Below, piece by piece: positions 9,013 to 58,424 of a stretch of DNA of 64,000 nt (position 1 is the stretch's first letter; each line of letters opens with the position of its first letter). The DNA is from a virus (Duplodnaviria; Caudoviricetes). The notes below the pieces were generated by a model that made no database searches, was not told the origin of the DNA, and worked only from the letters and a program-made list of their open reading frames with translations. The translations under genes and the position numbers were made by a program. Location: positions 64,001 to 128,000 of IMG/VR virus record IMGVR_UViG_3300023213_000432, one strand, 5' to 3'.

Positions 9013-9122
9013 GCCAATTACCCATGACTAAAAGTTATGGGCTTGTGTGAAGGATCCTAGTTAGATTCTTTTGATCAAGTTAAATTATTGCATTAGACAC
9101 AGATCAGAATAGGAGACGTTAA
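9013..9122 (+). mobile_element. Truncated isrB-element remnant (first ~110 nt of omegaRNA)
   Basis: GCCAATTACCCATGACTAAAAGTTATGGGCTTG...CAGAATAGGAGAC, then ATGA. Confidence 0.8.
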
Positions 9123-9386
9123 ATGACCCACGTTCGTATTTCTGCTGAACAAAATGAGCAAGAACTTACTATTCCTTGCACTAACTGCACTTCCGAATTT
9201 CGGGAAGAAAAGTTTGGTTGGCGTCCGGGATTAGTGTTTCATCCTTCATGGCATGAGTGGCTGGCTAAATTTCGTTTAGCGCGCGAAGAGAAAGTCGCTC
9301 CACCACCATTTCCCGAAGCACCATACTATATGGATTGTGATGTTTGTAAAGGTACTGGAGAAAAAGTAGTTTCGGTGGGTCAATAA
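9123..9386 (+). CDS. Zn-finger hypothetical protein (CxxC...CxxCxGxG)
   Basis: PCTNC; DCDVCKGTG; stop supplied by the next element. Confidence 0.65.
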   Translation: MTHVRISAEQNEQELTIPCTNCTSEFREEKFGWRPGLVFHPSWHEWLAKFRLAREEKVAPPPFPEAPYYMDCDVCKGTGEKVVSVGQ

Positions 9387-9835
9387 CCCACGATTTTAAT
9401 CGTGGGCTTGTGCGAAGGGAATCAGTCACTCTCTTTTGATCAAGACTAAAATATTGTACTAGACGAAGATCAGAATAGGAGACGCAAGTCAAATAGAAGA
9501 AGATCAAATAGGCAGATCAGGATCGTTATGACGAGACTGGAAAAGATACGCTACTGGATGTTTCGCTAGTCTGTAGCCGCATTTCGTAAGAGATGCCGAT
9601 ATTCTATCGATAAATTATAGGATATCCGCTGTGTTTTGCTTATGTCGAAGCGAGTTGCACAAGCCCTTTACAGGGAAGGTTTTCTGAGGATTTTTCCTTT
9701 CTCTCACGAGAGAATAAAGTCTTCGTTTTACTAAACAATTCGTCAAGAAAAGAGATATTGATGTCTTATACAAACAGAATAGGAGAGTTCAATTCCTCTC
9801 ACGACTAAAATCGTGGGTCTCCTTGAACCAATTTT
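9379..9835 (+). mobile_element. omegaRNA-only mini isrB element (internal deletion of the ORF)
   Basis: Both ends and the full omegaRNA present; only the last ~30 isrB codons kept; followed by ATGA. Confidence 0.9.
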
Positions 9836-10060
9836 ATGACACTCGATGAGATTAAGAAAGAACTTCAAGGCAGTCGGGATGAGACTGATAAGTTGGTCAA
9901 ATGTCTTCAGGACGCTATTCAGGCGGAAAATGAGGAAGATTTTATTCAAGCCTTGACTTGTGCTGATAGGATGGCTATTTCTTTATCAGGGACTATCTTT
10001 GAAGCATTATGCAAGATAGACCCAGAAGCAGCGATGGGTAATCTAGAAGACATAGATTAG
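9836..10060 (+). CDS. Hypothetical protein
   Basis: ORF starting at the ATGA flank of the mini element. Confidence 0.55.
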   Translation: MTLDEIKKELQGSRDETDKLVKCLQDAIQAENEEDFIQALTCADRMAISLSGTIFEALCKIDPEAAMGNLEDID

Positions 10061-11718: not shown

Positions 11719-11945
11719 GTCCTTATCGAACTGATATGGTAGTTCGGGAGCAAAAACAAGAATTTGGTTTGATTATTGCTCCCAAAGCTTATGTCCATGA
11801 GTGCCGACTTCCAAGATTATTGTTTCATCTTTGGATGTGGATGAGAGGTCAAAAAGTTGAGAATAAAAGCTTATACCGCTGCACCTGCGGAAAAGTGTTT
11901 CAGTATATAGCAGTAATTGGTCCATTAGGCTCTTGGTGTCAATAA
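11715..11945 (+). CDS. Small hypothetical protein; last codons replaced by the mini element
   Basis: HECRLP..YRCTCGK; removing the element gives ...GSWYELDD*. Confidence 0.55.
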   Translation: MSPYRTDMVVREQKQEFGLIIAPKAYVHECRLPRLLFHLWMWMRGQKVENKSLYRCTCGKVFQYIAVIGPLGSWCQ

Positions 11946-12386
11946 CCCATGACTAAAAGTCATGGGCTTGTGCGAAGGGAATCAGTCACTCTCTTTTGAT
12001 CAAGTTAAAATATTGTACTAGACACAGATCAGAATAGGAGAAGAAGATCAAATAGGCAGATCAGGATCGTTATGACGAGACTGGAAAAGATACGCTACTG
12101 GATGTTTCGCTAGTCTGTAGCCGCATTTCCGTAAGGAGATGACAATACCTCATCGATAATTTTGTGAGGTATTCGCTATGTTTTGCTTATGTCGAAGCGA
12201 GTTGCACAAGCCCTTTACAGGGAAGGTTTTCTGAGGATTTTTCCTTTCTCTTACGAGAAAATAAAGTCCTTGTTTTTATAAAACAATTCGTCAAGAAGAG
12301 AGATATTGATGTCTTATATGTACACAGGATAGGAGAGTTCAATTCCTCCCACGACTAAAATCGTGGGTCTCTTTGAACCATTTTTC
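11938..12386 (+). mobile_element. omegaRNA-only mini isrB element
   Basis: Same ends, omegaRNA and deletion junction as 9379-9835; followed by ATGA. Confidence 0.9.
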
Positions 12387-12425
12387 ATGAGTTGGACGAT
12401 TGATATTTAATAGGAGTATATAAAA

Positions 12426-29303: not shown

Positions 29304-30050
29304 ATGGAAACTAAAAAAGTATATTCAGTTTGGGCAGAATTAAAAGATGGATCAAAAAACGGTTATTGGCTTAATGATGCTGAGTGGAAATTTGAAAGTA
29401 TCGCAGATGCCCAAGATTGTGCGCAAAGATTTAACCGTTACTATCCTGACAGGAATTATCGAGCGAGAGAATATGAGGATTCGAAGTCATGAAGAAGTAT
29501 GCAATTTGGGTAGAATACAAAGATGGCTCGGCAAATGGTCGTTGGTTTCTGGAGTTTAATGGTCGTTTGGAATTTGACGATATCTCGAAAGCTAAAGATT
29601 ATGTCGCTCAACTCAACGAGTATTATGACGCTGTTCAGGTTCAAGTTAGAGAATGTGAGGAATTAAAATCATGAAGAAGTATGGAATTTGGGTAGAGTAC
29701 AAAGACAATTCAAAAAACGGTCGTTGGTATCTAAGTAATGGTCGGTTGGAATTTGACAATATCTCAGAAGCTAAAGATTATATCGCTTCACTCAACGAGT
29801 ATTATCACATCATACATTACCAAGTTAGAGAATGCGAGGAATTAAAGCCATGAAGAAATATGCAATTTGGATAGAAGACAAAGCCGGCTTAACAAATGGT
29901 AAGTGGTTTAGATCTCCCCATGCATTATTTGAATCAATCGCAGATGCTGAGAGACTTGCTGAACTTTCCAATTGCCAATCCGACAATTTCTATTATTATC
30001 AAGCGAGAGAGTACCAAGCGGATTACTGTCAGTCAATTACCAATGACTAA
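29304..30050 (+). repeat. Tandem array of 4 paralogous ~60-aa genes (29304-29492, 29489-29674, 29671-29853, 29850-30050)
   Basis: KKY..W.E.KD...NG.W....F..I..A...RE motif; the two middle copies are similar at DNA level; ATGA overlaps. Confidence 0.88.
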
Positions 30051-30386
30051 AGTCCTTGGCTTGTCGCTCATCCTACCATAAGCAGGAGATTATTTTTTAA
30101 TGGCAACAATAGGCTGATTGACAGCAGCCCTTAATAAAGTTTGGCGTTTCTAATAGCGACCTTTTAGAAAACCGTTTGCTTATTCAATCATAAATGATCG
30201 AGTTAAGTGCCTTCTAGGTCTCGATTCGCTAAACGTAGGATAATAATTTTCTAACGCATATCTTACCTCTTTCTGTATTTGGATAGCAAAAGATATATAA
30301 CCATCATTCTGAAGTTTTTAAGAAAAAAGAAAGGAAAAAGCAATTCCTCCCATGATTAAAATCATGGGCTTCTTTGCTAATAGATC
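30032..30386 (-). mobile_element. reRNA-only mini tnpB-type element (subfamily with TCAC target)
   Basis: Minus strand TCAC|GATCTATTAGCAAAGAAG-hairpin ... GGCTG..TCAATCAGCC ... TAATTGAC; removal restores CAG TGA stop overlapping a GTG start. Confidence 0.88.
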
Positions 30387-30782
30387 GTGATTCGTTCCCA
30401 AATTCTCACTTTATGTGTTGCTATTCGAAAAGCCTGCTTGAACATTGGTTTTGATAGAGATTTGAATGGAGCTTGTGCCATCGCTTCTTATTTTCTTCAT
30501 TATAAACTTCATAGTCTAAAAGTTAAATCAAAATTCATTCAAGGAGAATATGAGGGATTGGCTCATTGTTGGGTGGAAATTGGAAACGCTATTGTAGATA
30601 TTACTGCTGTTCAATTTAGCGTGGATACTGATTTTTTATTGGTTGATGCCTTGGATGCTCGGTATAATTCGACAGTTAAGAGATATATAAAGGATAATTT
30701 GAAATCCTGGCCCGAAAAGCAGAAACCAGAGAACTATTGCGGGACATGGGTAAATGATAAGTTGAAACTGGTTAGGAGATAA
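30387..30782 (+). CDS. Hypothetical protein, possibly papain/transglutaminase-like
   Basis: GACAIAS..HCWVEI..IVDITA (Cys/His/Asp pattern); GTG start. Confidence 0.55.
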   Translation: MIRSQILTLCVAIRKACLNIGFDRDLNGACAIASYFLHYKLHSLKVKSKFIQGEYEGLAHCWVEIGNAIVDITAVQFSVDTDFLLVDALDARYNSTVKRYIKDNLKSWPEKQKPENYCGTWVNDKLKLVRR

Positions 30783-34360: not shown

Positions 34361-35345
34361 CGTAATAGATACGTCCATAGGAGAGCCACATATTGTTAGG
34401 GAGTGTCTGCTCAAAATCTTTGATCTTACCTATACTCTGCCTAAAGAAAAAGGGATGTGGGAATACCCTAATCCCAAAGGACACCCTGAATTGATTAAGA
34501 TATTAGAGGATAAGTATAATGCACCCATAGTTATTACCAACGGTGCAATGCAAGGGCTGCATGCCGTGTTTCATGCACTTAAATCAATGGGAAAGGTATC
34601 TATCTCTTGGGCAAAACCGTGGTTTCATTGTTTGCCCAAGATAGCTGAGATGAACGGATTGCAGTGGAGCGAAGGAGAGAATGGGGATGCGATTTTGTTG
34701 GTGGCACCACGTAATCCTGATGGTTTTATGCCATCTCCAGAAGAAGTTAAGAAACTTTTCGAGAATTGCAAAGAGCAAGGACGCTATTTGATCCATGACT
34801 CTGTTTATTATTCTCACACCTACCTTCCTGAAACTTATCCTTTAAAACCTGTTGGAGATGTTCAGATCTTTAGCGCTTCTAAGCTTTTAGGTCTTTCGGG
34901 ATTAAGGGTTGGTTGGATCATCTGCCACAACAAAGATTTTTATCACCCTATCGTAGAATATATGGAAGCTATGACGGTGGGCGCCTCTATGCTCTCCCAA
35001 ATTTTCTTGCGAGATTTATTGGAGCGAACGCGCGCCTATCCATATTTGATTCGAAATTTTGAGAGACTTTCTTCTATTGCTTTGGAGAAATCTAAAGCCA
35101 CCCTCAAAGGAGTTGATCCTGAAGTTTTAGAGGTGCCCGAAAATTTTGAGAAGATTAATGGAATGTTTGCATTCTGTAAAACCAATGATATGGGGCGTTT
35201 TGTGAAAGCAAAAGTAAATGTTGCTGATGGTAAGTATTTTGGTATGGAAGGCTACGTTAGAATGAATTTAGCATTTGGAGAAGAGAAAATGAAAGAGATT
35301 GTTAAAAGATTAAACGAGGTAAAAATGTCAATTACCCATGATTAA
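34320..35345 (+). CDS. PLP-dependent class I/II aminotransferase-like protein; C-terminus extended by the mini element
   Basis: ITNGAMQGL; PRNPDG; IHDSVY; SASKLLGLSGLRVGW; YVRMNL. Confidence 0.9.
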   Translation: MNDLLIVKPNILSDVIDTSIGEPHIVRECLLKIFDLTYTLPKEKGMWEYPNPKGHPELIKILEDKYNAPIVITNGAMQGLHAVFHALKSMGKVSISWAKPWFHCLPKIAEMNGLQWSEGENGDAILLVAPRNPDGFMPSPEEVKKLFENCKEQGRYLIHDSVYYSHTYLPETYPLKPVGDVQIFSASKLLGLSGLRVGWIICHNKDFYHPIVEYMEAMTVGASMLSQIFLRDLLERTRAYPYLIRNFERLSSIALEKSKATLKGVDPEVLEVPENFEKINGMFAFCKTNDMGRFVKAKVNVADGKYFGMEGYVRMNLAFGEEKMKEIVKRLNEVKMSITHD

Positions 35346-35787
35346 AATCATGGGCTTGTGCGAAGGATACTAGCCAGATTCTTTTGATCAAGACCAAAAT
35401 ATTGTACTAGACACAGATCAGAATAGGAGACGCAAGTCAAATAAAAGAAGATCAAATAGGCAGATCAGGATCGCTATGACGAGACTGGAAAAGATACGCT
35501 ACTGGATGTTTCGCTAGTCTGTAGCCGCATCTCCGTAAGGAGATGCCAATACCTCATCGATAATTGTGAGGTATTAGCTGTGTTTTGCTTATGTCGAAGC
35601 GAGTTGAACAAGCCCTTTACAGGGAAGGTTTTCTGAGGATTTTTCCTTTCTCTCACGAGAGAATAAAGTCCTCGTTTTTACTAAAACAATTCGTCAAGAT
35701 AAGAGATATTGACGTCTTATATGCACAGAATAGGAGAGTTCAATTCCTTCCACGACTAAAATCGTGGGTCTCCTTGAACCAATTTCC
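35327..35787 (+). mobile_element. omegaRNA-only mini isrB element
   Basis: Same architecture as 9379-9835; removal restores AAA ATA TGA stop overlapping the next ATG. Confidence 0.9.
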
Positions 35788-36090
35788 ATGAACGCAGAAA
35801 AAGAAAATCAATCCGAATTGGAGCAAGAGTTTCGAGGGCTTGTTGAACGACATTCGCAAGAGATCGAAGAAAAATTGAATGATGCCAATACTGCCATGAA
35901 AGAAGCGATGACACTTTCTGAAAAATATGGCATCCCTTTTCCAGCTAATATATCCCAAATAAGTCAGTCTTATACTCCAAAATCTTTTATAACAAAGTTT
36001 GGTCAATTAGACAGAGAACTAATTGAAGAATTATCGGGTGCCGAGCTTAATGGCTATTACGGTTGGGAACATTCGGACGTTTGTTATTAG
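35788..36090 (+). CDS. Hypothetical protein, GW..S..C C-terminal family
   Basis: LEQEF..A..A.KEA..L..K.GIPF..GWEHSDVCY. Confidence 0.65.
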   Translation: MNAEKENQSELEQEFRGLVERHSQEIEEKLNDANTAMKEAMTLSEKYGIPFPANISQISQSYTPKSFITKFGQLDRELIEELSGAELNGYYGWEHSDVCY

Positions 36091-36327: not shown

Positions 36328-36545
36328 GTCAATTACCATCAGCACAAGGCTAATAGCTTGTAAGTAGCATTTCTGCTCCTACAATAGGCTGATTGACAAC
36401 AGCCCGATCCGATAGCCCTTGGCTATCAAGATGCTTGAGGACAATATTTCTACTGCCATTCAAGTCTGCATTTAATCTAAATCCACATTGCTTGCAGCAA
36501 AAGTTAGCTTGACTCTTTCGATTAGAGCGACAAATATATCCACAT
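36328..36545 (-). ncRNA. TnpB reRNA/omegaRNA overlapping the tnpB 3' end; guide = downstream flank; 5' end approximate
   Basis: GGGCTGTTGTCAATCAGCC hairpin and right-end hairpin conserved in 5 ORF-less minis. Confidence 0.7.
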
Positions 36546-37477
36546 TTGCTACACCTCTGAGAAGTATAGCGAGCATCAATATAAACTATGTTAATACCCT
36601 TAGCGGCACCCTTATAGATCAAGAACTGTTCTAATTGAAAGAAAGACCAATTGTTGAGCAAAGTGCGTTGTTCTTTTCTTAATCGCTTGTTGCGAATCCC
36701 TGTTAGATCCTCTAATACGATAGTGTCTCCTGGATTTAGTTTATCGATAATCTCCTTGCTAATTTGATGGTTAACATCTGCTCGAAACCGTCTCTCCTTT
36801 CGAGATAATTCTCGAAGGTGTCTTTTGGCAGATTTGCTTCCTGTTCGTTGAAGTCTTTTGCGAAGTCTCTGATAGCGGCGCACAACTCGCTTTACCTCTC
36901 CTCCTCCAAAGAATTGATTGTTGGAGGAAACTGCTAGGTTATTAATCCCTCTGTCGATGCCCACAAAAGTTCCAGCAGGTTGAACGTCTTCAATATCCTT
37001 TTCAAAAACGATATGCAGGAAAACTTTCTTTTTGATGATGCAGAGATCTGCGGAAGTATGCTTCCAAGTTTTAAAATATTCTTTGTAAAAGTTTGGAATT
37101 GTAAGCTGATAGCGTTTTCGTCCATTGATGGTCAGCAGAGAAAGTTGTTGAACATCTAAGAATAGCGTATAAGAATTCTTATCTAAACGAATGCTACACA
37201 GATGGGAATGAGGACAAGAATAATAGCGCTTAGGTTTGGAAAAGACTCCTTTGAGAGCCTCGGTAGCTTTCATCCTAGCGGAGATAGCAAGTTGAGAGGG
37301 AAGATAATCACGTGTCGTATAATAGCAAAGATCGTGAAGTTTGACGCCGTTCTTTTCTTTCTTCTCGAAACCTGTTTGAGCCACGAAGTTAAACGCTTTG
37401 GTATAAGCCTCTAAGGTAGGTAAAATCTCAGGAATTGAGATATTAAGTTTGATCTTAGCGGTTCTTACCAACTTCAT
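36350..37477 (-). CDS. tnpB: TnpB RNA-guided nuclease, catalytic residues intact
   Basis: RuvC-I VGIDRG; RuvC-II VLEDL; ZnF CSKCG/CKQCG; RuvC-III NADLNGSRNI. Confidence 0.95.
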   Translation of the reverse strand: MKLVRTAKIKLNISIPEILPTLEAYTKAFNFVAQTGFEKKEKNGVKLHDLCYYTTRDYLPSQLAISARMKATEALKGVFSKPKRYYSCPHSHLCSIRLDKNSYTLFLDVQQLSLLTINGRKRYQLTIPNFYKEYFKTWKHTSADLCIIKKKVFLHIVFEKDIEDVQPAGTFVGIDRGINNLAVSSNNQFFGGGEVKRVVRRYQRLRKRLQRTGSKSAKRHLRELSRKERRFRADVNHQISKEIIDKLNPGDTIVLEDLTGIRNKRLRKEQRTLLNNWSFFQLEQFLIYKGAAKGINIVYIDARYTSQRCSKCGYICRSNRKSQANFCCKQCGFRLNADLNGSRNIVLKHLDSQGLSDRAVVNQPIVGAEMLLTSY

Positions 37478-37481
37478 ACTG

Positions 37482-37511
37482 ATTATATAACTACATATTG
37501 ATAGATGTCAA
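37482..37511 (-). promoter_or_regulatory. Sigma70-like promoter of tnpB, probably leaderless mRNA
   Basis: TTGACA-18 nt-TATAAT, ATG 4 nt downstream; TTGACA also present in minis 54466 and 62334. Confidence 0.7.
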
Positions 37512-37822
37512 GAGAAAAAGAAAGGAAAAGACAATTCCTCCCATAGCACAAGGCTATGGGTATCCTTGCCTAAGAGATCATGAAGTTGATGCGGCTTGGG
37601 AAGAGTGTGAAGTTAAATTTGAATCCGCCCGAAATAAAATAGAAGGTGCAGTAGAGGACTTGGAACGAGCCAATAATTTAGCAATCGAATTCGATATTAA
37701 GATTGCAGCTCGGTTTAATAAGATTGATGTTCTGAGTTTGTTGAGCCAGTTAACTGAAGCAGGTTGGTCGCATTCGAGTTTAGAGTGTTAATTATAATTG
37801 TTGAAGAAAAATCTGAAAAATA

Positions 37823-46104: not shown

Positions 46105-46850
46105 ATGTTAAATATTTGATTACTGATAACAGTATTACTGTTCATTTTGATGGACAAACTCACATCGTAGCGCGAGGTGATGCTTTGTCGGAGCGTCTAA
46201 TTGAGGTGCTCCGAAGTGGAAAACATGAAGAAGTTCCTAATTTGGTATCTGCTTCCATGAGAATTACAAACTTTTCCAAAGGAAATTTTACCGTGGAAAA
46301 TGGAGACATCCTAGTTAATGGAATTAAAGCTCCGGATGCTTTGGGTAAAAAGATTGTCAAGTTTGCCAATGAAGGATTACCATATCAACCATTGGTGAAG
46401 TTCGCAGAGCATTTGCAACAAAATCCATCGAGACGATCGGTGGAAGAGTTGTTTATGTTTTTGGAGAAGAATGACCATCCTATTACTCCAGATGGATTAT
46501 TTATTGGATATAAGCGCATTCGTGCTGATTTCAAGGACATTTACTCTGGCACCTTTAACAATACACCGGGTGCGTTGGTGGAAATGGCTCGTCAGGAAGT
46601 GGATGAAGATGCGAATCAGACATGTTCTCGAGGGCTCCATGCCAGTAATTGGGAGTATTGCACCAAGCATTATGCTAGCAAAGATGCCGAGAGTGATGTT
46701 ATTGTAGCTTTGGAAATTGACCCTGCGGATGTTGTGTCGGTACCCGTGGATTATAATAATGCTAAAATGCGTGTTTCTAAGTATCGCGTTATAGAAGTTG
46801 TTAAAGAGCCATATCAAGAGGGCATAGTTATTCGAAAGGTTGGTCAATAA
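46101..46850 (+). CDS. rIIB: rIIB-like protein
   Basis: NPSRRSVEELF.FL..ITPDG.F..YK; CSRGLH; IDPADVVSVP.DYNNAKMRV. Confidence 0.92.
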   Translation: MNVKYLITDNSITVHFDGQTHIVARGDALSERLIEVLRSGKHEEVPNLVSASMRITNFSKGNFTVENGDILVNGIKAPDALGKKIVKFANEGLPYQPLVKFAEHLQQNPSRRSVEELFMFLEKNDHPITPDGLFIGYKRIRADFKDIYSGTFNNTPGALVEMARQEVDEDANQTCSRGLHASNWEYCTKHYASKDAESDVIVALEIDPADVVSVPVDYNNAKMRVSKYRVIEVVKEPYQEGIVIRKVGQ

Positions 46851-48206
46851 CCCATGACTAAACTCATGGGCTTGTGCGAAGGGAATCAGTCACTCTCTTT
46901 TGATCAAGTTAAAATATTGTACTAGACACAGATCAGAATAGGAGACGCAAGTCAAATAAAAGAAGATCAAATAGGCAGATCAGGATCGCTAATGACGAGA
47001 CTGGAAAAGATACGCTACTGGATGTTTCGCTAGTCTGTAGCCGCATTTCGTAAGAAATGCCAATATCTCATCGATAATTTTATGAGGTATTCGCTGTGTT
47101 TTGCTTATGTCGAAGCGAGTTGAACAAGGCACGTAAGTGCATTTTTTGAGGAAATAATAGAAATTGGTTCCCGTTATCGATAACCACAAACAACCATTAA
47201 TGCCTTGCTCTGAGAAAAGAGCCAGGAGACTTATGGAGAAAGGTAGCGCTATTTCATATTGGCAGAAAGGTATCTTTTGCATTCGTCTAACTAAAGAACC
47301 TTCTAACCGACAAACACAACCCATTGCTCTTGGGATTGATCCAGGAAGTAAAAGAGAAGGATATACTGTTGCTACTAGAAAAGCAGTAGTATTGAATATT
47401 ACCTCCAATACTCCGGGCTGGATTAAAAAACATATTGATACTCGAAGACAATTACGGAAAAGCCGAAGATATAGAAAAACTCCTTATCGTTCTTGTCGAG
47501 AAAATAGAGCTACTTTGAGGAAAGATCGTGTTCCTCCTTCCACCAAAGCAAGGTGGAATGCTAAATTGCGAATGGTTATTTTTCTTCTGAAAATTATTCC
47601 TATTACCATTATTAATGTAGAAGATGTTGCCGCTTACACTAAGAAAGGACAAGCAAAGTGGAACGTTTCTTTCTCTCCTTTGGAGGTTGGAAAAGTTTGG
47701 TTTTATCAAGAGATAAAAAACCTTGGAGTTCAGCTTCTCAAAACTGAAGGACATCAAACTCAAGAAAAACGAGATCAGCGCGGGTTTCAAAAATCATCTT
47801 CCAAGCTTAGCTATTCTTGGAATGCTCATAACGTAGATAGTCATGTTCTTGCGGAGATGGCGCTAGGAACAGAAATCTTTCCATATTATGGATTGTGGAA
47901 GATAGAATTTTTAGAATTTCATCGAAGACAACTTCACGTTCAGAATCCAATTAAGAATAGCATCAGAAAACAATATGGGACTACTATTTCTATGAAAATG
48001 CCCAGAGGATCTGTCATAAGACATAAAGGTAAGTTCTATTATCTTGGAGGAAGTAGCAAAGGTAGAGTTACTATTCATAGCGTCATTACAGGAAAGAGAA
48101 TTAAGCAATCTGTCAAGAAGGAGAATATTGTTGTTTTATATGCACAGAATAGGAGAGTTCAATTCCTCCCACGATTAAAATCGTGGGTCTCCTTGAACCA
48201 ATTTTC
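46843..48206 (+). mobile_element. isrB element, copy 2
   Basis: Same ends and omegaRNA as copy 1; followed by ATGA. Confidence 0.92.
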
Positions 48207-48210
48207 ATGA
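47164..48210 (+). CDS. isrB: IsrB, copy 2
   Basis: PLMP; GIDPGSK; VEDV; HNVDSH; no HNH. Confidence 0.9.
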   Translation: MVPVIDNHKQPLMPCSEKRARRLMEKGSAISYWQKGIFCIRLTKEPSNRQTQPIALGIDPGSKREGYTVATRKAVVLNITSNTPGWIKKHIDTRRQLRKSRRYRKTPYRSCRENRATLRKDRVPPSTKARWNAKLRMVIFLLKIIPITIINVEDVAAYTKKGQAKWNVSFSPLEVGKVWFYQEIKNLGVQLLKTEGHQTQEKRDQRGFQKSSSKLSYSWNAHNVDSHVLAEMALGTEIFPYYGLWKIEFLEFHRRQLHVQNPIKNSIRKQYGTTISMKMPRGSVIRHKGKFYYLGGSSKGRVTIHSVITGKRIKQSVKKENIVVLYAQNRRVQFLPRLKSWVSLNQFS

Positions 48211-50281: not shown

Positions 50282-50410
50282 ATGGCACCAACAAAGTTAG
50301 AAGTGGGACAGCGAGTTCGTTGTGTGTTCGCTTATCCGCATAAAGGCAAAACCGGCATTGTCCAGAAAGTAGATGCTATCGGATTAGATATTAAGTGGGA
50401 CGGTCAATAA
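50282..50410 (+). CDS. Small SH3/KOW-like protein; stop supplied by isrB copy 3
   Basis: LEVGQRVRC..GKTGIV..IKWDG. Confidence 0.6.
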   Translation: MAPTKLEVGQRVRCVFAYPHKGKTGIVQKVDAIGLDIKWDGQ

Positions 50411-51761
50411 CCCATGACTAAAATTATGGGCTTGTGCGAAGGATCCTAGTCAGATTCTTTTGATCAAGACTAAAATATTGTACTAGACAAAGAGAGAAGA
50501 AAGGTTATTTAACCAAACGATATTTCAAATAGGCAGATCAGGATCGCTATGACGAGACTGGAAAAGATATGCTACTGGATGTTTCGCTAGTCTGTAGCCG
50601 CATTTCGTAAGAAATGCCGATATTCTATCGATAAATTATAGAATATCCGCTGTGTTTTGCTTATGTCGAAGCGAGTTGAACAAGGCACGTAAGTGCAATT
50701 TTTTGAGGAAAAGAAACATTGGTTCCCGTCATCGATAACTACAAACAACCATTAATGCCTTGCTCTGAGAAAAGAGCTAGGAAACTTATGGAAAAAGGAA
50801 AGGCTATTTCATATTGGCAGAAAGGTATCTTTTGCATTCGTCTAACCAAAGAACCTTCTAACCGACAAACACAACCCATTGCTCTTGGCATTGATCCTGG
50901 AAGTAAAAGAGAAGGATATACTGTTGCTACTAAGAAAGCAGTAGTTATCAATATCACAACTAATACTCCAGGCTGGATTAAAGATCATGTAGAGACTCGT
51001 AGAAACCTTCGAAGATCTAGAAGATACCGAAAGACTCCTTATCGCTCCTGTCGAGAAAATAGAGCAACTCTTCGAAAAAATCGAGTTCCTCCTTCCACCA
51101 AAGCCAGGTGGAATGCTAAACTGAGAATTATTAAATTCATTCTGAAAATTATTCCTATTACAATCGTTAATGTAGAAGATATTGCCGCTTACACTAAGAA
51201 GGGACAAGCAAAGTGGAATACTTCCTTCTCTCCTTTAGAGGTTGGAAAAACTTGGTTCTATCGTGAGTTAGAAAACTTCGGAGTTCAGCTTCTCAAAACC
51301 AAAGGAACCAAAACTCAAGAAAAACGAGATCAGCGAGATTTTCATAAGCTATCTTCCAAGCTTGATTATTCTTGGAGTGCTCATAACGTGGATAGCCATG
51401 TCCTTGTGGAGATAGCATTGGAATCAGAAATCTCTCCATATTATGGACTATGGAAAATAGAGTTTTTAGAATTTCATCGTAGACAACTTCATGTCCAGAA
51501 TCCAATCAGAGGCAATATCAGAAAACGATATGGAACTACTATTTCTATGAAAATGCCCAGAGGTTCTGTCGTAAAACATAAAGGTAAGTTATATTATCTT
51601 GGTGGAAATAAAAAAGGGAAAGTTTCGCTCCATAGTATCATTACAGGAAAAAGAATTAAACAATCTGTCAAGAAGAGAGATATTGGCGTTTTGTATGCAC
51701 AGAATAGGAGAGTTCAGCTCCTTCCACGATTAAAATCGTGGGTCTCCTTGAGCCTATTTTA
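50403..51761 (+). mobile_element. isrB element, copy 3
   Basis: Same ends; omegaRNA has a variant segment at ~50490-50525; followed by ATGA. Confidence 0.92.
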
Positions 51762-51762
51762 A
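50719..51762 (+). CDS. isrB: IsrB, copy 3
   Basis: PLMP; GIDPGSK; VEDI; HNVDSH; no HNH. Confidence 0.9.
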   Translation: MVPVIDNYKQPLMPCSEKRARKLMEKGKAISYWQKGIFCIRLTKEPSNRQTQPIALGIDPGSKREGYTVATKKAVVINITTNTPGWIKDHVETRRNLRRSRRYRKTPYRSCRENRATLRKNRVPPSTKARWNAKLRIIKFILKIIPITIVNVEDIAAYTKKGQAKWNTSFSPLEVGKTWFYRELENFGVQLLKTKGTKTQEKRDQRDFHKLSSKLDYSWSAHNVDSHVLVEIALESEISPYYGLWKIEFLEFHRRQLHVQNPIRGNIRKRYGTTISMKMPRGSVVKHKGKLYYLGGNKKGKVSLHSIITGKRIKQSVKKRDIGVLYAQNRRVQLLPRLKSWVSLSLF

Positions 51763-54326
51763 TGAAAATGAAAGTAGATGCTTTTATGCCTTCCATCGAT
51801 GCCGCCAAAACTCAAACTTTACTTAAAGATAATTCCGAGTCCTCCATAAAACCTGACCTTCAAGATCGAAAACAATATAAAATCGGAGATCGTGTCAAAC
51901 TTCGGATCAAAGAAAAGCAAGAAGTTTGGGGCACCGTTATCGAGCATAATTCTGCTCATAGTTTGTGTCTTTTTTTGGATGAGGCAATAGACATTGAACA
52001 GAAGAAAAGCTTCAAAACTATAAATCATGAGCGTCAGGAAACTCTTAAGAAATTGGGCATCTCGAATCCAGAGCGCCCTAACTGTTTTTTGTGGGGAGAT
52101 TTTTCCCCTAACTACATTATTGGAACTGACAAAGTTATTGTTTTGGATCGCCTTCTTGACGAAGAAACCATTAATCCGGCAGGTAAATCGATGGACGTTT
52201 TACCAGATTCCATCTTTTTTGATTGTCATAGTAACAGGTTCAGTGGATGCAGGCATGACTCGCAACACGAGCCATCCACTCGAAAAGTATATGCGGCTCT
52301 GAAAATAGATAAAGGAAATCCAGATTTAGTCTATGTTTGCGATCAGCATTTTCAAAATCGAGTTAGCTATAATTGGGAAAATCGTTCTTTAGGTTTTGAA
52401 GGTTTGGTACCATTAGATGTTGGTCCCGCTCCGTCCTATAAATTTGGAGATCGGCTTCAAATTAAGATTAATAACGAGATTGTTTGGGCCACCGTAGTAG
52501 ATGAACGAGGTTCCGGCGCCCATGAACCTCGTCTATCTTATCCGTTATTGCATTTAGATAAACCCAATCCCGCCTCTCATGATTTTATTCCGGAAGATCG
52601 TGTTAAACCTATTTCAGATATGGGTATAAATGTCAATGAGAAAAAGTTTTGGTGGCTTCTCCCTGATAACAAAGTTTTGTATCGTCTTCCTAAAGAACGT
52701 CCATGCACTCCATCTAATCAGCCCACAAAAGAAGGTAAGGGCGATATTGATGGTGCCCAAGTCAAACCACCCGAAGTAAAACAGTTTAAAGAAGGAAGCC
52801 TCGTTAAATATATTGCTGAGAGCGCACAAGTTGGAAGTAATCCAGCCCTGGTTATAGGACAATTATATAAGATTAGGAAAATAGGAAAGAGTATCGATGG
52901 CAGCGATCAAATTTTCTTGAAGGGATTTGATGAAGAAGATATTTGGTGGCGGAAAGAAAGATTTGAATTAATAACTGTTAAGAAAGATGTTCCTGTTGCT
53001 TTAGAGACGCCCACTAAACAAGAAGACAAATGTCAAATTGGAGATCATGTCTCATTGCTCATTGATGGAGTGTATAATACTGGTGGCACGGTAGTGGGTT
53101 TTCAGGATCAAGTTCCATTAATTTGGTTAGATCTTCCTAAACCAGGAAAGTATGGTGGGACAGTTGATTACTATTCCAATAAAGATGTAATTTGTGCTAA
53201 TATCAAAAAGTTAGGCTATGATACAAGTTTGCATCGTTGTTGGATTGCCCATCATTGGCATACCAGGATTCTCAACATTAAACACCTTTATTGGCTGGAT
53301 GCAAACGGCATGCCCTTGAAGTTTGATGATGCTAACTCAACTTTGAAGAATGCGGTAGCACCTCAGCCGCAAGCGAATGAAGTAGTTGATGTTGATAAAG
53401 CTAAATCATTTTCTATTTCCGGCGATGTTTATGGTCCGTATCCTGTCCCAACTACTAATTGGTGGCCGCTTGGAAATCAGTCCAACATCGAACAAAAGCC
53501 CCTTTTCAGCCCGCAGGATATTGAACGTGCCATTAAAACTTTGGAACAAGCATTTGCTATGGGTTTGGCAAAATCAGATCAAAAAGATGCGTTGAATGTT
53601 TTGGATCAAGTGGCTAAAAGATTGGAGCAAAAGGAAGATATTGTAAATACAATAACCAAAACTTATACTTTTTCTCAAGACAATACTTCTAATTGGATGC
53701 CGTTTGTTATAAATGCCGGTGCCAATTCTAAACCCCTTAACTTCAAGTTTGATGGTAAATCATGGAATATTGTTTCGGATGCCCCCATTAATGTTAGTGG
53801 TGGCAAATTAGATCCAGAAGAAAATTTCAAGGTATTTGTTGAAGAGGAAGAACAACCTAACAGCGACGACGAAGCTAAAAAGCGACCCTTTAGCGCTATG
53901 GTTAAAGAAGATGTCATTGATGCTGGATACCGTGTAGTTGCCAATCAACTTACCAAAGGCATTAAAAATGTTTTTCTCCTTGTTCTCAAAGACAAAGGAG
54001 CAGATGATAAGAAAATTACTCTCGTTCGAGAACTATTGGATAGTGAGATCGGCAATGCTTTTGTTTCTATTATCTTGGGATATTGTCTTACTTATATGCC
54101 CAAAGTTAAGGAAGATAAGCGGGCTCAAAAGTTGGCGGGCGAATTCCGCGTAGAAGGGTTATCAACTGCTGGTAATGCTTTGATGAATGTGGTATGGCAA
54201 TATGTTAAGGATTTGCCAGCATCGGAAAAAATAAGAGTGGAAACGAAAGAAGTTCGAGTTTCAGAAGAGGAGATACAAGAAATTGACGAAGTCGGCGAAG
54301 CAAGCGGCAATTGTGCTAATCATTAA
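51762..54326 (+). CDS. Modular protein D: SH3/KOW-like repeats + conserved C-terminal domain
   Basis: YKIGDRV..WGTV..LFLD repeats; C-terminus DAGYRVVANQLTKG..LLDSEIG..EFRVE. Confidence 0.8.
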   Translation: MKMKVDAFMPSIDAAKTQTLLKDNSESSIKPDLQDRKQYKIGDRVKLRIKEKQEVWGTVIEHNSAHSLCLFLDEAIDIEQKKSFKTINHERQETLKKLGISNPERPNCFLWGDFSPNYIIGTDKVIVLDRLLDEETINPAGKSMDVLPDSIFFDCHSNRFSGCRHDSQHEPSTRKVYAALKIDKGNPDLVYVCDQHFQNRVSYNWENRSLGFEGLVPLDVGPAPSYKFGDRLQIKINNEIVWATVVDERGSGAHEPRLSYPLLHLDKPNPASHDFIPEDRVKPISDMGINVNEKKFWWLLPDNKVLYRLPKERPCTPSNQPTKEGKGDIDGAQVKPPEVKQFKEGSLVKYIAESAQVGSNPALVIGQLYKIRKIGKSIDGSDQIFLKGFDEEDIWWRKERFELITVKKDVPVALETPTKQEDKCQIGDHVSLLIDGVYNTGGTVVGFQDQVPLIWLDLPKPGKYGGTVDYYSNKDVICANIKKLGYDTSLHRCWIAHHWHTRILNIKHLYWLDANGMPLKFDDANSTLKNAVAPQPQANEVVDVDKAKSFSISGDVYGPYPVPTTNWWPLGNQSNIEQKPLFSPQDIERAIKTLEQAFAMGLAKSDQKDALNVLDQVAKRLEQKEDIVNTITKTYTFSQDNTSNWMPFVINAGANSKPLNFKFDGKSWNIVSDAPINVSGGKLDPEENFKVFVEEEEQPNSDDEAKKRPFSAMVKEDVIDAGYRVVANQLTKGIKNVFLLVLKDKGADDKKITLVRELLDSEIGNAFVSIILGYCLTYMPKVKEDKRAQKLAGEFRVEGLSTAGNALMNVVWQYVKDLPASEKIRVETKEVRVSEEEIQEIDEVGEASGNCANH

Positions 54327-55074
54327 GGATGGATTAATCCTTGGGATTTCTCGAAAAAACGATCCAACCAAATTTTCTCTTATTGGTGGAAAATGCGAAG
54401 TTGGCGAATTACCAGTAGAAGCTGTTCTTCGAGAAACTCTTGAAGAGACCGGCATTGAAGTTCATGATCTCTTAGGCAAGAGATACCCATAGCCTTGTGC
54501 TATGGTAGGAATTGCCATTTACTTTCTTTTTCTCTTGACATCTATCAATAAGTGATTTATATATTAGTACGTTCTTTGAAAATTTGGCGGTTCTATTTCC
54601 ATTGGTTTAATAGCGAAGACACTTCCCGAGTTCAAGAAGGATCTCGAATAGTAATACAGTTGTTCCAATCCTTTTAGATTGGTCTCCGATATAAGAAACT
54701 TAGAACTTAAAAACTTGGATCGTTTAACGATCCCAAGATCATTTCTGGCTATATGCCAGAATGACGGGCTGTCGTCAATCAGCCTATTGTTTCCATTACT
54801 TCGTGATGAGGAACAAGCCATCAGCCTTGTGCTGATGGTAATTGACGGTGGTGCTTTTATCTATGAGCGTGTAGAGCCGAAGGAAAGTCCTGATGGAGAT
54901 GATTTTCGCACGTTTGCTTTCTACGCCACTGCATGGACGGGAGAGCCCAAAAATCTTGAAGGAGGCACAGTTAAATGGTTAACGGCGGCAGAATTGACTT
55001 CCAAAGAAACTGGTGCTTTCCAGAATACAATGCTAAGACACTGGAGCGATTTAGAAAGTTGTATCCGAAAGTAG
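54283..55074 (+). pseudogene. NUDIX hydrolase split by mini element 54466-54846, with a probable extra frameshift near 55020
   Basis: Nudix box GGKCEVGELPVEAVLRETLEETG; removal joins IEVH|GGAFIYE in frame. Confidence 0.88.
54466..54846 (+). mobile_element. reRNA-only mini tnpB-type element (TCAT target), + orientation
   Basis: TCAT|GATCTCTTAGGCAAGAGATA-hairpin ... CCATCAGCCTTGTGCTGATGGTAATTGAC|. Confidence 0.9.
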
Positions 55075-55590: not shown

Positions 55591-56028
55591 GCTTCAAAAA
55601 TAGTTTTTGTTCCTACTGTGGAGTTAAATTCACGGAGCAAATTAAATACCCACGAAAGTGTTTTAGCTGCTATCAGGATACTTATTTTAATCCATTGCCT
55701 GCGACTATCTCTATCCTTCGAGTATTTGATCCAGAGAGCCATGGTTATTATAGAAGATGGGGAGTGCTAATCACCAAACGAAACATTGAGCCACATAAAG
55801 GTAAATTTTGTTTGGTGGGCGGGTTTTTGGAAAATAATGGCGAAACATGGCAAGAAGCCTCGGCTCGGGAAATGCAAGAAGAAATCCAACTATCTCTTGA
55901 TCCTAGCGAATTCAGTTTAGTGGATATTAAAAATTCCACTGCACCTAAAGGAATTTTATTAATTATAAATATGGTGATTACCATTAAAGAATTCGCCCAG
56001 ATCAAGTTTCAGCCTAATAACGAAGTTA
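55587..56028 (+). pseudogene. Zn-ribbon NUDIX hydrolase interrupted near the C-terminus by mini element 56029-56377
   Basis: CSYCG..CFSC..NPLP; GGFLENNGETWQEASAREMQEE. Confidence 0.8.
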
Positions 56029-56377
56029 GTCAATTACCAATGACTAAAGTCCTTGGCTTGTCGCTCATCCTACCATTGATAGGAGGTTGTTTTTTAATGG
56101 CAACAATAGGCTGATTGACAACAGCCCTAAATAAAGTTTGGCGTTTCTAATAGCGACCTGTTAAAAACCGTTTGCTTATTCGATCATAAATGATCAAGAA
56201 AGTGCCTTCTAGGTCTCGATTCGCTAAACGTAGATATTAATTTTTAACTCATCTCTTACCTCTTTCTATTTAGATAGCAAAAGATATATAACCACCATGC
56301 TTGAAGTTTTTAAGAAAAAGAAAGAAAAAAGCAATTCCTCCCATGATTAAAATCATGGGCTTCCTTGCTAAGAGATC
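56029..56377 (-). mobile_element. reRNA-only mini tnpB-type element (TTAC target)
   Basis: Near-identical to 30032-30386 and 63328-63687. Confidence 0.88.
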
Positions 56378-58087: not shown

Positions 58088-58133
58088 GTCAATAACCCAT
58101 GATTAAAATCATGGGCTTGTGCGAAAGGAATCA
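58088..58133 (+). mobile_element. 46-nt remnant of the isrB-element end
   Basis: GTCAATAACCCATGATTAAAATCATGGGCTTGTGCGAAAGGAATCA, then ATGA. Confidence 0.8.
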
Positions 58134-58424
58134 ATGACCAAAGATAAAAATAAAGTAGATTTGACACTGTTGAAAAAGTTAGTGATTGAATTGGAGGCTT
58201 CTCTTACCACTGCGGAAGGAGTTGTTGAAACGGATCATAATGGATATTTCGTGGAAATGTCTAAAGGAGCCGGATTAGCCGCAGGAGTCATGCAAGAAGC
58301 GTCTATGTTAATTATGGATATTTACGGAGTGGTTCAATCTAAGCAGGGCGGTGTCTCTGTCAAAGAAAGTTTTTTTGGTGATTTGCTTGGAAAGTTTAAA
58401 GGCGGAATTGGAGGTTCTAATTGA
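58134..58424 (+). CDS. Hypothetical protein
   Basis: Starts at ATGA; SD AAAGGA comes from the remnant. Confidence 0.6.
   Translation: MTKDKNKVDLTLLKKLVIELEASLTTAEGVVETDHNGYFVEMSKGAGLAAGVMQEASMLIMDIYGVVQSKQGGVSVKESFFGDLLGKFKGGIGGSN

What the first reader, a model, noticed from the sequence alone, without database searches (positions are those of the whole stretch)
30032..30386. reRNA-only tnpB minis: guide scaffold freed from coding overlap, with its own promoter
Seen: five 349-420-nt ORF-less elements keep the GGCTG..TCAATCAGCC and right-end hairpins. The divergent 62334 copy shares short blocks with 30032/56029/63328 (TTTTGCTA, AGAAAGAG, TCGAGA..AAGGCACTT, ACGGTT, TCGCTATT) separated by variable stems; some blocks weakly resemble the tnpB 3' coding region. 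TTGACA/-10 boxes are present in 54466 and 62334. Three copies also have AGAGGT + ATG-X-stop. Inference: independent guide-RNA genes evolving under structural rather than coding constraint, a step towards tracr/crRNA-like autonomy. Four of the five would also transcribe antisense into phage genes.
Basis: partly seen in the sequence, partly recalled or inferred. Interest (0 to 1): 0.6.

Follow-up and report, generated by a model that had tools for sequence, protein, structure and literature searches.

The report
Gene-less TnpB guide-RNA mini-transposons in phage
Five short, protein-less copies of a TnpB "jumping gene" in a huge phage keep both transposon ends and the folded guide-RNA scaffold of the nuclease. 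They are clear new examples of an already described kind of hitch-hiker element (PATE), not a new step towards CRISPR-like RNAs.

Summary
Five ORF-less elements of 349-420 nt lie at 30032-30386, 56029-56377, 63328-63687 and 62334-62753 (all minus sense) and 54466-54846 (plus). All share ends with the one intact tnpB element in the window (36328-37579). Each keeps the right-end module: a hairpin GGCTG-NN-GTCAAT-CAGCC, a pseudoknot between its loop and the last six bases of the element, and two further stems.

Across 49 distinct full-length and gene-less relatives this structure covaries strongly: 92.5% of cells are paired against 23-42% in slid controls. Its layout matches the solved ISDra2 TnpB guide RNA.

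The TTGACA/-10 boxes in two copies are the inherited tnpB promoter of the left end, not a new one. The interiors of the 30032 type and of 62334 are related to each other but not detectably to tnpB. I found no relatives beyond one other phage contig, so structural constraint there cannot be shown. Expression could not be tested.

Gene-less IS200/IS605 elements (PATEs) that encode guide RNAs for TnpB supplied in trans are already described (Meers et al. 2023). This scan has reported the same kind in several other genomes. Verdict: real, correctly read in outline, a new member of a known kind.

The parts
30032..30386 (-). Gene-less TnpB-type mini-transposon (355 nt), 30032 type. Right end at 30032, left end at 30386.
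   Evidence: Copies at 56029 and 63328 are 92-94% identical. Boundaries from copy comparison. Removing it leaves the upstream ORF ending ...YCQ-TGA.
30032..30132 (-). Right-end guide-RNA (reRNA) scaffold of the 30032 copy. S3 hairpin at 30112-30129, S4, S5 hairpin at about 30040-30059, and pseudoknot 3' strand ATTGAC at 30032-30037.
   Evidence: CM hit of 82.8 bits. Pairs counted in A5. Fold.
30012..30031 (-). Predicted guide segment: the flank just 3' of the right end, antisense to the 3' end of the + strand ORF 29832-30050.
   Evidence: Anatomy by analogy with TnpB reRNA. Its only exact match in the 198 kb is the flank itself.
30387..30391 (-). Target/TAM motif 5' of the left end (ATCAC on the element's sense strand).
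   Evidence: Flank comparison gives TTCAT x3, then ATCAC, ATTAC and TTCAC.
30293..30386 (-). Left end: TnpA-type hairpin (30349-30368), T-rich tract and a -10-like TTATATAT (30293-30300). No consensus -35.
30251..30270 (-). AGAGGT + ATG-CGT-TAG start-stop mini-frame.
   Evidence: Also present in 56029 (TAA), 63328 (TAG) and the L045 copy (TGA).
56029..56377 (-). Second 30032-type mini (349 nt). Scaffold 56029-56129, guide flank 56009-56028, TAM ATTAC.
   Evidence: 84.2 bits.
63328..63687 (-). Third 30032-type mini (360 nt). Scaffold 63328-63428, guide flank 63308-63327, TAM TTCAC.
   Evidence: 82.8 bits.
62334..62753 (-). Divergent mini (420 nt). Its ends resemble the tnpB element and its interior resembles the 30032 type. 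Promoter TTGACA-18-TATATT at 62654-62683. Scaffold 62334-62453 with an enlarged, poorly fitting S4.
   Evidence: (57.1 bits).
54466..54846 (+). Mini (381 nt) on the opposite strand, inserted inside a NUDIX gene. Promoter-like TTGACA-17-TATATA at 54535-54565. S1 and S2 hairpins and the scaffold lie at 54764-54846. Guide flank 54847-54866. TAM TTCAT.
   Evidence: (81.4 bits).
36328..37579 (-). Full-length tnpB element (TnpB 375 aa, ORF 36350-37477). It is the likely source of nuclease in trans for the 54466 and 62334 minis. It has the same left-end promoter (37482-37511), and its scaffold at 36328-36407 lies almost wholly inside the ORF.
   Evidence: Pfam OrfB_IS605 + Cas12f1-like_TNB. D175/E256/D338 and four Cys fall at invariant columns of 32 homologues..

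Best explanation
The five elements are non-autonomous, protein-less derivatives of TnpB-type IS200/IS605 insertion sequences (PATE/MITE-like). Shown: each keeps a left end with the TnpA-type hairpin and the tnpB promoter region. Each also keeps a right end holding the complete core of the family's guide-RNA (reRNA/omega RNA) scaffold: hairpin S3, a pseudoknot between the S3 loop and the last six bases, stem S4 and the subterminal hairpin S5. They sit 3' of a TCAY/TTAC-like target motif. Inferred: a Y1 TnpA moves them in trans. Transcription from the left-end promoter, or read-through, runs across the right end into the flank. This would give an RNA whose last 16-20 nt are a guide matching that copy's own insertion site. 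TnpB made elsewhere would load it: the 36350-37477 gene for the 54466 and 62334 types, and an L035-like TnpB not seen in this partial record for the 30032 type. TnpB would then cut the empty site (TAM + flank) after excision, or in a co-infecting phage genome that lacks the insert. Repair from the occupied copy would restore or spread the mini. On this reading the minis parasitise both the transposase and the nuclease. I put about 0.9 on their being PATE-like elements that keep the scaffold, and about 0.5 on their working as guides in trans.
For: - Ends and copy structure.
- Three 92-98% identical copies lie at different sites with different flanks, which indicates recent transposition.
- Removing 54466-54846 restores an in-frame 152-codon NUDIX frame, which fixes the boundaries and the TAM.
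- Structure on 49 distinct relatives: 92.5% of cells are paired against 23-42% when partners are slid. The covariation score is 0.439 against 0.05-0.09. Twenty of 30 pairs show double changes.
- The pseudoknot is fully Watson-Crick in 45 of 57 sequences and G.U in 10 more, with the pair types UA, CG, AU and GC at the variable position and a double change AGC:GCT.
- The layout matches ISDra2, where scaffold bases -5 to -3 pair with bases about 100 nt upstream (PMC10097598).
- In full-length relatives the same module lies inside the tnpB 3' coding region.
- The right-end core is the least variable part of the 30032-type copies: 0.03-0.08 variable columns per nt against 0.23 in the interior.
- In another huge phage, a deletion series of nine copies always keeps at least 210 nt at the right end.
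- A second phage contig holds a 30032-type mini together with a full-length tnpB that has the same ends.
- The window's TnpB has the RuvC D-E-D residues and the zinc-finger Cys at invariant columns.
- Meers et al. state that PATEs often encode omega RNAs that TnpB must act on in trans.
Against:
- The three 30032-type copies have no consensus -35.
- Their matching TnpB lineage (L035 type, only 33% identical to the window's TnpB) is absent from the 198 kb held.
- The one tnpA in the record belongs to an element with different ends.
- The S4 of 62334 fits the model poorly (57 bits).
- S5 and the terminal bases are also what TnpA needs, and the copies may be too young for their conservation to prove RNA function.
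Confidence: 0.6

Rival explanations
1. They are plain TnpA-mobilised MITEs/PATEs with no RNA role. The right-end module is conserved only because the copies derive recently from full-length elements and because TnpA needs the subterminal hairpin and cleavage site.
For: The three main copies are 92-98% alike, so little time has passed. S5 and the terminal ATTGAC are shared even with the IsrB elements, which points to a TnpA requirement. Three copies lack a clear promoter. No cognate TnpB for the 30032 type is present in the record.
Against: S3, the pseudoknot partner and S4 lie 30-90 nt inside the subterminal hairpin, further in than I recall TnpA needing for IS608-type ends (about 30-40 nt, not checked in a paper here). 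They are nevertheless the best-kept parts of the minis. They are kept in three mini lineages whose interiors are otherwise unalignable. Deletion variants in another phage never enter the last 210 nt.
Confidence: 0.27
2. One reading: these are autonomous guide-RNA genes with their own promoter, evolving under purely structural constraint as a step towards tracrRNA/crRNA-like independence from the transposon.
For: The scaffold is kept outside any reading frame. Two copies have a consensus promoter. One compensatory change (C-G to U-A) sits in an interior hairpin between the window copies and L045. S1 of 54466 keeps the outer stem of the tnpB version through an A-U to G-C change, judged by eye.
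Against: The promoter is inherited from the tnpB left end. The elements keep full transposon ends and target motifs and have recently moved. There is no repeat-spacer array and no anti-repeat. The interior family is found only in this phage and one other contig, so no covariation test is possible. The interior is the fast-evolving part.
Confidence: 0.05
3. They are dead relics: immobile, decaying fragments of tnpB elements with no activity of any kind.
For: The S4 of 62334 is degenerate. Fragments of the same family exist elsewhere in the record: a right-end piece at g34337-34413 and a micro-element at g153912-154093.
Against: Both ends are intact in all five. Three near-identical copies lie at distinct sites. 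The boundaries are precise enough to restore a NUDIX frame.
Confidence: 0.05
4. They are IsrB-type omega-RNA minis read from the + strand, because their first 33 bases match the start of the IsrB omega-RNA region.
For: 30032-30064 matches 1133-1165 and its paralogues at 85% (family D7).
Against: The match stops after the shared TnpA-type hairpin. Nothing else of the roughly 255-nt IsrB upstream region is present. True IsrB minis, which keep the whole upstream region, exist separately at 9379-9841, 11938-12390 and 35327-35791. The G.U pairs make the structure specific to the TnpB-sense strand.
Confidence: 0.02

Closest known systems
PATE-like, protein-free IS605-family elements that encode omega RNAs (Geobacillus stearothermophilus; Meers et al. 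2023, PMC10055086)
   Same: No ORF. Left and right ends resemble those of the resident tnpB/iscB elements. A guide-RNA module is kept at the right end. Both TnpA and the nuclease are presumed to act in trans.
   Different: Here the host is a huge uncultured phage, and several insertions lie in or at the ends of phage genes. Three mini lineages co-exist, one of them a mosaic. The 150-200-nt interior of two lineages is not recognisably tnpB-derived.
ISDra2 TnpB reRNA/omega RNA (Karvelis et al. 2021, PMC8612924; Nakagawa et al. 2023, PMC10097598)
   Same: The scaffold ends at the transposon right end with the guide taken from the flank. The stems are joined by a pseudoknot between the last bases before the guide and a far-upstream segment. 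In full-length elements the scaffold overlaps the tnpB 3' end.
   Different: No sequence similarity. The core here is shorter (77-120 nt from S3 to the end, against 116 nt). The upstream pseudoknot strand sits in a hairpin loop. Nothing here is shown biochemically.
Stand-alone omega RNAs without an adjacent nuclease gene (Altae-Tran et al. 2021, cited as reference 26 by Meers et al.; not read here)
   Same: Guide-RNA loci separated from the nuclease gene, implying action in trans.
IsrB omega-RNA-only minis in the same window (9379-9841, 11938-12390, 35327-35791)
   Same: The same process acts on the sister nuclease family. The ORF is deleted and the guide-RNA region and both ends are kept. They share the TnpA-type terminus GGT[A/T]ATTGAC, a similar left-end hairpin and the TCAT target.
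   Different: Their guide RNA is read from the other strand, with the guide at the 5' end. Their interiors are plainly an internal deletion of isrB (88-93% identical to the full-length copies).

Membership tests
PATE / protein-free non-autonomous IS200/IS605 element | Left and right ends with subterminal hairpins like those of full-length family members | tested here: met
   The left end is 75-93% identical to that of the tnpB element. The right end carries the S5 hairpin plus GGTAATTGAC.
PATE / protein-free non-autonomous IS200/IS605 element | No protein-coding gene | tested here: met
   No conserved frame under code 11 or with TAG or TGA read through. The single 85-aa antisense frame in 54466 has no Pfam hit.
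PATE / protein-free non-autonomous IS200/IS605 element | Dispersed copies with precise boundaries next to a short target motif, without target duplication | tested here: met
   Five sites, each 3' of TTCAT, ATCAC, ATTAC or TTCAC. Removing 54466-54846 restores a NUDIX frame.
PATE / protein-free non-autonomous IS200/IS605 element | Mobilised in trans by a Y1 TnpA | tested here: inconclusive
   One tnpA lies in the record (g45433-45786), but its element has different ends. The record is only 46% complete.
TnpB reRNA / omega RNA | Structured scaffold at the right end that stops at the transposon boundary, and that overlaps the tnpB 3' end in full-length relatives | tested here: met
TnpB reRNA / omega RNA | Conserved secondary structure with a pseudoknot involving the bases next to the guide | tested here: met
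   Covariation in S3, S4, S5 and the pseudoknot. ISDra2 layout for comparison.
TnpB reRNA / omega RNA | Transcribed, processed and bound by TnpB; directs TAM-dependent DNA cleavage | not testable with these tools
IscB/IsrB omega RNA | A scaffold of about 200-300 nt following a 5' guide, homologous to the region upstream of isrB | tested here: not met
   Only the first 33 nt (the shared transposon-end hairpin) match.
crRNA/tracrRNA of CRISPR-Cas12 | Repeat-spacer array and/or an anti-repeat RNA separate from a transposon end | tested here: not met
   Each scaffold is a single copy inside a complete transposon. No arrays were found and there are no Rfam hits.

The most novel reading that the evidence does not exclude
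In this huge phage the guide-only minis, TnpB-type and IsrB-type together, may act as a dispersed set of gene-drive loci. A few master nuclease genes would load the minis' guides and cut co-infecting relatives that lack the inserts. This would convert or exclude them, much as free-standing homing endonucleases do in T-even phages. The non-tnpB interior module, found behind two different kinds of ends (30032 type and 62334), would then be a functional RNA part, for example for stability or processing, rather than filler.
Probability: 0.15. Interest if true: 0.65.

Novelty: new member of a known kind. Interest (0 to 1): 0.3.

Why it matters
These copies act as a natural control for a question raised by overlapping tnpB/reRNA genes: which layer constrains the shared sequence? 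With the reading frame gone, the 18-nt S3 hairpin, the pseudoknot partner and the stem closures stay intact while everything else drifts. That points to RNA-level constraint. The family-wide alignment also gives a well-supported structure, including a covarying pseudoknot, for a large uncharacterised TnpB clade. This could help anyone wanting compact guide scaffolds. Biologically, the window shows a huge phage colonised by two RNA-guided nuclease families and their guide-only parasites, some of which split phage genes. The concept itself is already published, so the gain is documentation, not discovery.

Tried and rejected
- Rfam at gathering and at E-value thresholds gave no family for the minis.
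- Megablast and blastn against cultured phages gave no match.
- I looked for a tnpB origin of the 30032-type interior. Local and global alignments to the window's tnpB and to the L035 tnpB are no better than shuffles. The few shared 9-mers are not colinear, so I treat them as chance.
- I looked for more interior relatives to allow a covariation test. The pattern scan found only L045 in viral contigs and three chance hits without transposon ends in metagenome contigs. RNAalifold on five sequences is uninformative, with a covariation term of +1.36.
- Empty-site search through the NUDIX C-terminal half found no relatives.
- Look-up of the TnpB's other contig returned nothing on record.
- Second targets for the guides: none closer than 2 mismatches over 16 nt in the 198 kb.
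- The IsrB-type reading of the minis was rejected.
- The stop of the start-stop mini-frame appears as TAG, TAA or TGA in different copies. I considered this as a sign of selection, but single transitions explain it, so I did not count it.

Full report
**Setting.** The window is bases 64001-128000 of a 198,652-bp viral record judged 46% complete, with 39% G+C. Nearly all long ORFs are on the + strand. The window holds two families of IS200/IS605-type elements. One has three intact 347-371-aa genes with the RRXRR domain; I read them as IsrB-like from their size and that domain. The other has one intact tnpB at 36350-37477 on the minus strand, 375 aa, with the OrfB_IS605 and Cas12f1-like_TNB domains. 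Elsewhere in the record there are three more tnpB genes and one Y1 tnpA.

**The observation.** Self-comparison and alignment give five ORF-less elements:
- 30032-30386 (355 nt)
- 56029-56377 (349 nt)
- 63328-63687 (360 nt)
- 62334-62753 (420 nt)
- 54466-54846 (381 nt), on the other strand

The first three are 92-98% alike.

All five, and otherwise only the 3' end of the intact tnpB, contain GGCTGNNGTCAATCAGCC and end in GGTAATTGAC. Their other end matches the region upstream of tnpB: a hairpin, a T-rich tract and the promoter region. No frame is conserved among copies, even with TAG or TGA read through. The 85-aa antisense frame in 54466 is unique to that copy and has no Pfam match.

**Boundaries and target.** On the elements' sense strand each begins with GATC directly after TTCAT (tnpB, 54466, 62334) or after ATCAC, ATTAC or TTCAC (the 30032 type). 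Each ends with ATTGAC.
- Removing 54466-54846 joins two fragments into a 152-codon frame. Its first 61 residues match NUDIX profile positions 5-60 of 134, so this mini splits a phage NUDIX gene. This also validates the boundaries.
- The 30032 copy sits exactly at a stop codon.
- The 62334 copy sits inside an ATGA stop/start overlap.
- The IsrB elements share the terminus GGT[A/T]ATTGAC, a closely similar left-end hairpin and the TCAT target. One kind of TnpA probably serves both families.

**What the right end is.** A scan of viral contigs for the S3 motif and a search for TnpB relatives gave 57 distinct right ends. Thirty-one lie behind full-length tnpB genes, in phages and in bacterial and archaeal MAGs. 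The rest are gene-less or truncated.

On an alignment of 50 of them (49 distinct) I tested a structure taken from single-sequence folds and RNAalifold. The structure has:
- S3, a hairpin of 5-6 bp with an 8-nt loop
- a pseudoknot between loop bases GTCAAN and the last six bases NTTGAC
- S4, a stem of variable length whose closing pairs are usually UUGU/ACAA
- S5, the subterminal hairpin

The result:
- 92.5% of cells are paired, against 23-42% when the 3' partners are slid by 1-3 columns.
- The covariation score is 0.439, against 0.05-0.09 for the slid controls.
- 20 of 30 pairs carry double changes.
- No shuffle reached the observed values.

The pseudoknot is fully Watson-Crick in 45 of 57 sequences and has a G.U pair in 10 more. 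The variable position takes the pair types UA, CG, AU and GC, and there is a double change AGC:GCT. Frequent G.U pairs tie the fold to the tnpB-sense strand.

A further hairpin, S2, abuts S3 in 74% of full-length relatives and in all five copies classed as having no tnpB remnant upstream. Its sequence is very different from case to case.

The layout matches the solved ISDra2 omega RNA. There the bases just before the guide pair with a segment about 100 nt upstream to form the pseudoknot (PMC10097598). In full-length elements the module lies inside the tnpB 3' coding region; in the window's gene the stop codon lies within S5.

A covariance model of this module finds exactly six strong matches in the window: the five minis at 57-84 bits and tnpB at 78 bits. 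These six were part of the training set. The next tier, at 30 bits or less, is the IsrB ends, which share only S5 and the terminus.

**So the minis carry the guide-RNA scaffold.** All five keep S3, both pseudoknot strands, S5 and a form of S4. The S4 of 62334 is enlarged and fits the model poorly.

Within the 30032 subfamily (three window copies plus one in another phage contig, L045), the density of variable columns differs by region:

| Region | Variable columns per nt |
|---|---|
| S5 and terminus | 0.03 |
| S3 | 0.08 |
| Interior | 0.23 |
| Promoter tract | 0.35 |

Because the reading frame is gone, the intact 18-nt S3 and its partners argue that the RNA layer, not the protein layer, constrains this overlapping stretch. 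The youth of the copies weakens this argument.

In a 353-kb phage contig, a family of nine related copies forms a deletion series. The longest copies, about 580 nt, still encode the C-terminal half of TnpB. The shorter ones lose interior sequence but never the last 210 nt.

**Promoter.** The full-length element has TTGACA-16/18-TATATA/TATAAT at 37482-37511, only 4-6 nt before the ATG, which suggests a leaderless message. The same box is present in 54466 (54535-54565) and 62334 (62654-62683, 11 of 12 matches). The 30032 type keeps only a -10-like TTATATAT, and the scan calls no promoter there. The promoter is thus inherited, not acquired, and is intact in two of the five.

**Interiors.** The 150-200 nt between the promoter and S2/S3 behave differently in the three lineages.
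- In 54466 the part next to S3 still shows the tnpB-derived S1 and S2 hairpins. By eye, from the folds, the outer stem of S1 is kept through an A-U to G-C change while its inside is replaced.
- In 62334 the S2 hairpin is nearly identical to that of a bacterial full-length tnpB (L104).
- Further upstream, the interiors of 62334 and the 30032 type are homologous to each other (z = 5.7). Neither resembles tnpB coding sequence (z = 0.2 and -0.5; local score at shuffle level).
- 62334 is a mosaic: its ends are those of the window's tnpB element and its interior belongs to the 30032 lineage.
- The only other carrier of this interior is L045. One compensatory change in one hairpin is all the covariation available.
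- Structural selection on the interior is therefore neither shown nor excluded.

The AGAGGT + ATG-X-stop motif is real in all four 30032-type copies. It is not found in the nearest full-length relative, and its meaning is open.

**Which nuclease?** The right ends of 54466 and 62334 go with the window's tnpB element: the S5 hairpin is near-identical and the left ends are 92-93% identical. That TnpB has Asp, Glu and Asp at positions 175, 256 and 338 and four Cys, all at columns invariant among 32 homologues. I read these as the RuvC triad and a zinc finger.

The 30032 type instead matches a different lineage, the L035 tnpB. Its ends are 89-91% identical to the 30032 type, but the protein is only 33% identical to the window's TnpB. 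That lineage lies in the same foreign contig as the L045 mini but is absent from the 198 kb held here.

The record's only tnpA sits in an element with unrelated ends. The trans partners are therefore plausible but incomplete in the data.

**Mechanism proposed.**
- Shown: the transposon anatomy, the target motif, the scaffold and its covariation.
- Inferred: TnpA moves the minis. Transcription across the right end makes an RNA whose 3' 16-20 nt match that copy's own flank. TnpB supplied in trans cuts TAM + flank at empty sites. Recombination with an occupied copy then restores or spreads the insert, possibly between co-infecting phages.

Each predicted guide has only its own flank as an exact match in the record. 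Four of the five minis point against the + strand genes, so their guide parts would be antisense to the 3' ends of phage messages. This follows from a shared insertion orientation and need not be a function.

**Comparison with what is known.** Meers et al. (PMC10055086) found protein-free PATE-like elements among the Geobacillus IS605 family. They wrote that PATEs often encode omega RNAs that must be used in trans by TnpB from other elements. A 2026 review lists homing of transposons into co-infecting phages as a recognised mode (PMC13565253). This scan has already reported at least eight gene-less TnpB guide cassettes on other genomes, including phages. The present case adds a well-documented phage example with three lineages, a mosaic copy and a strong structure model. 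It is not a new kind.

**Verdict.** These are new members of a known kind, of modest interest.

Noticed in passing
window 54283-55074: The 54466-54846 mini splits a phage NUDIX hydrolase gene. The N-terminal 61 aa match NUDIX profile positions 5-60 of 134, and removing the element restores a 152-codon frame.
   Followed up: yes
window 62314-62760: The 62334 mini is inserted inside an ATGA stop/start overlap between an Rv2179c-like 3'-5' exoribonuclease gene and the next gene. The upstream ORF now runs 33 codons into the element.
   Followed up: partly
window 9379-9841, 11938-12390, 35327-35791: Three IsrB-type minis keep the roughly 290-nt region upstream of isrB (presumed omega RNA) and the last 108 nt, with the ORF deleted. 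They are 88-93% identical to the full-length IsrB elements at 1133-2503, 46843-48210 and 50403-51768.
   Followed up: partly
window, all 13 elements: Twelve of the 13 TnpB- and IsrB-type elements share one TnpA-sense orientation (minus strand). This is as expected if insertion is biased to one replication strand.
   Followed up: no
window 62334-62753: This is a mosaic element. Its left and right ends resemble the window's tnpB element (92-93% and 91%), while its interior is homologous to the 30032-type minis. This suggests recombination between mini lineages.
   Followed up: partly
window 30251-30270, 56244-56263, 63548-63567; L045 about 4160: A conserved Shine-Dalgarno-like AGAGGT is followed by ATG-X-stop. 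The stop is TAG, TAA, TAG and TGA in the four copies. Its origin and meaning are unknown, and it is not present in the nearest full-length tnpB.
   Followed up: partly
window 36328-37579 and flanks: Removing the full-length tnpB element joins the flanks into a stop-free frame of about 138 codons, so it too may interrupt a phage gene. This was computed with a left boundary 3 nt off, which keeps the frame.
   Followed up: no
record outside the window: g34337-34413 and g153912-154093: At g34337-34413 there is a 77-nt right-end fragment of the 30032 type that lacks S3. At g153912-154093 there is a 46-nt micro-element in which the left-end hairpin is fused directly to the right-end terminus TAATTGAC, followed about 120 nt later by a second right-end hairpin.
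   Followed up: no
L037, L048, L049, L052, L053, L056, L077, L087, L096 (viral contig IMGVR_UViG_3300028735_000003, 353 kb): Another huge phage carries at least nine copies of a 5'-truncated tnpB element of about 580 nt, plus shorter deletion variants. All keep at least 210 nt of the right end. One copy carries an extra insert of roughly 670 nt.
   Followed up: partly
window 58088-58170 and 9013-9108: These are solitary IsrB-type right-end remnants (28 and 18.7 bits to the right-end model; repeat families D7 and D14) with no partner left end nearby.
   Followed up: no
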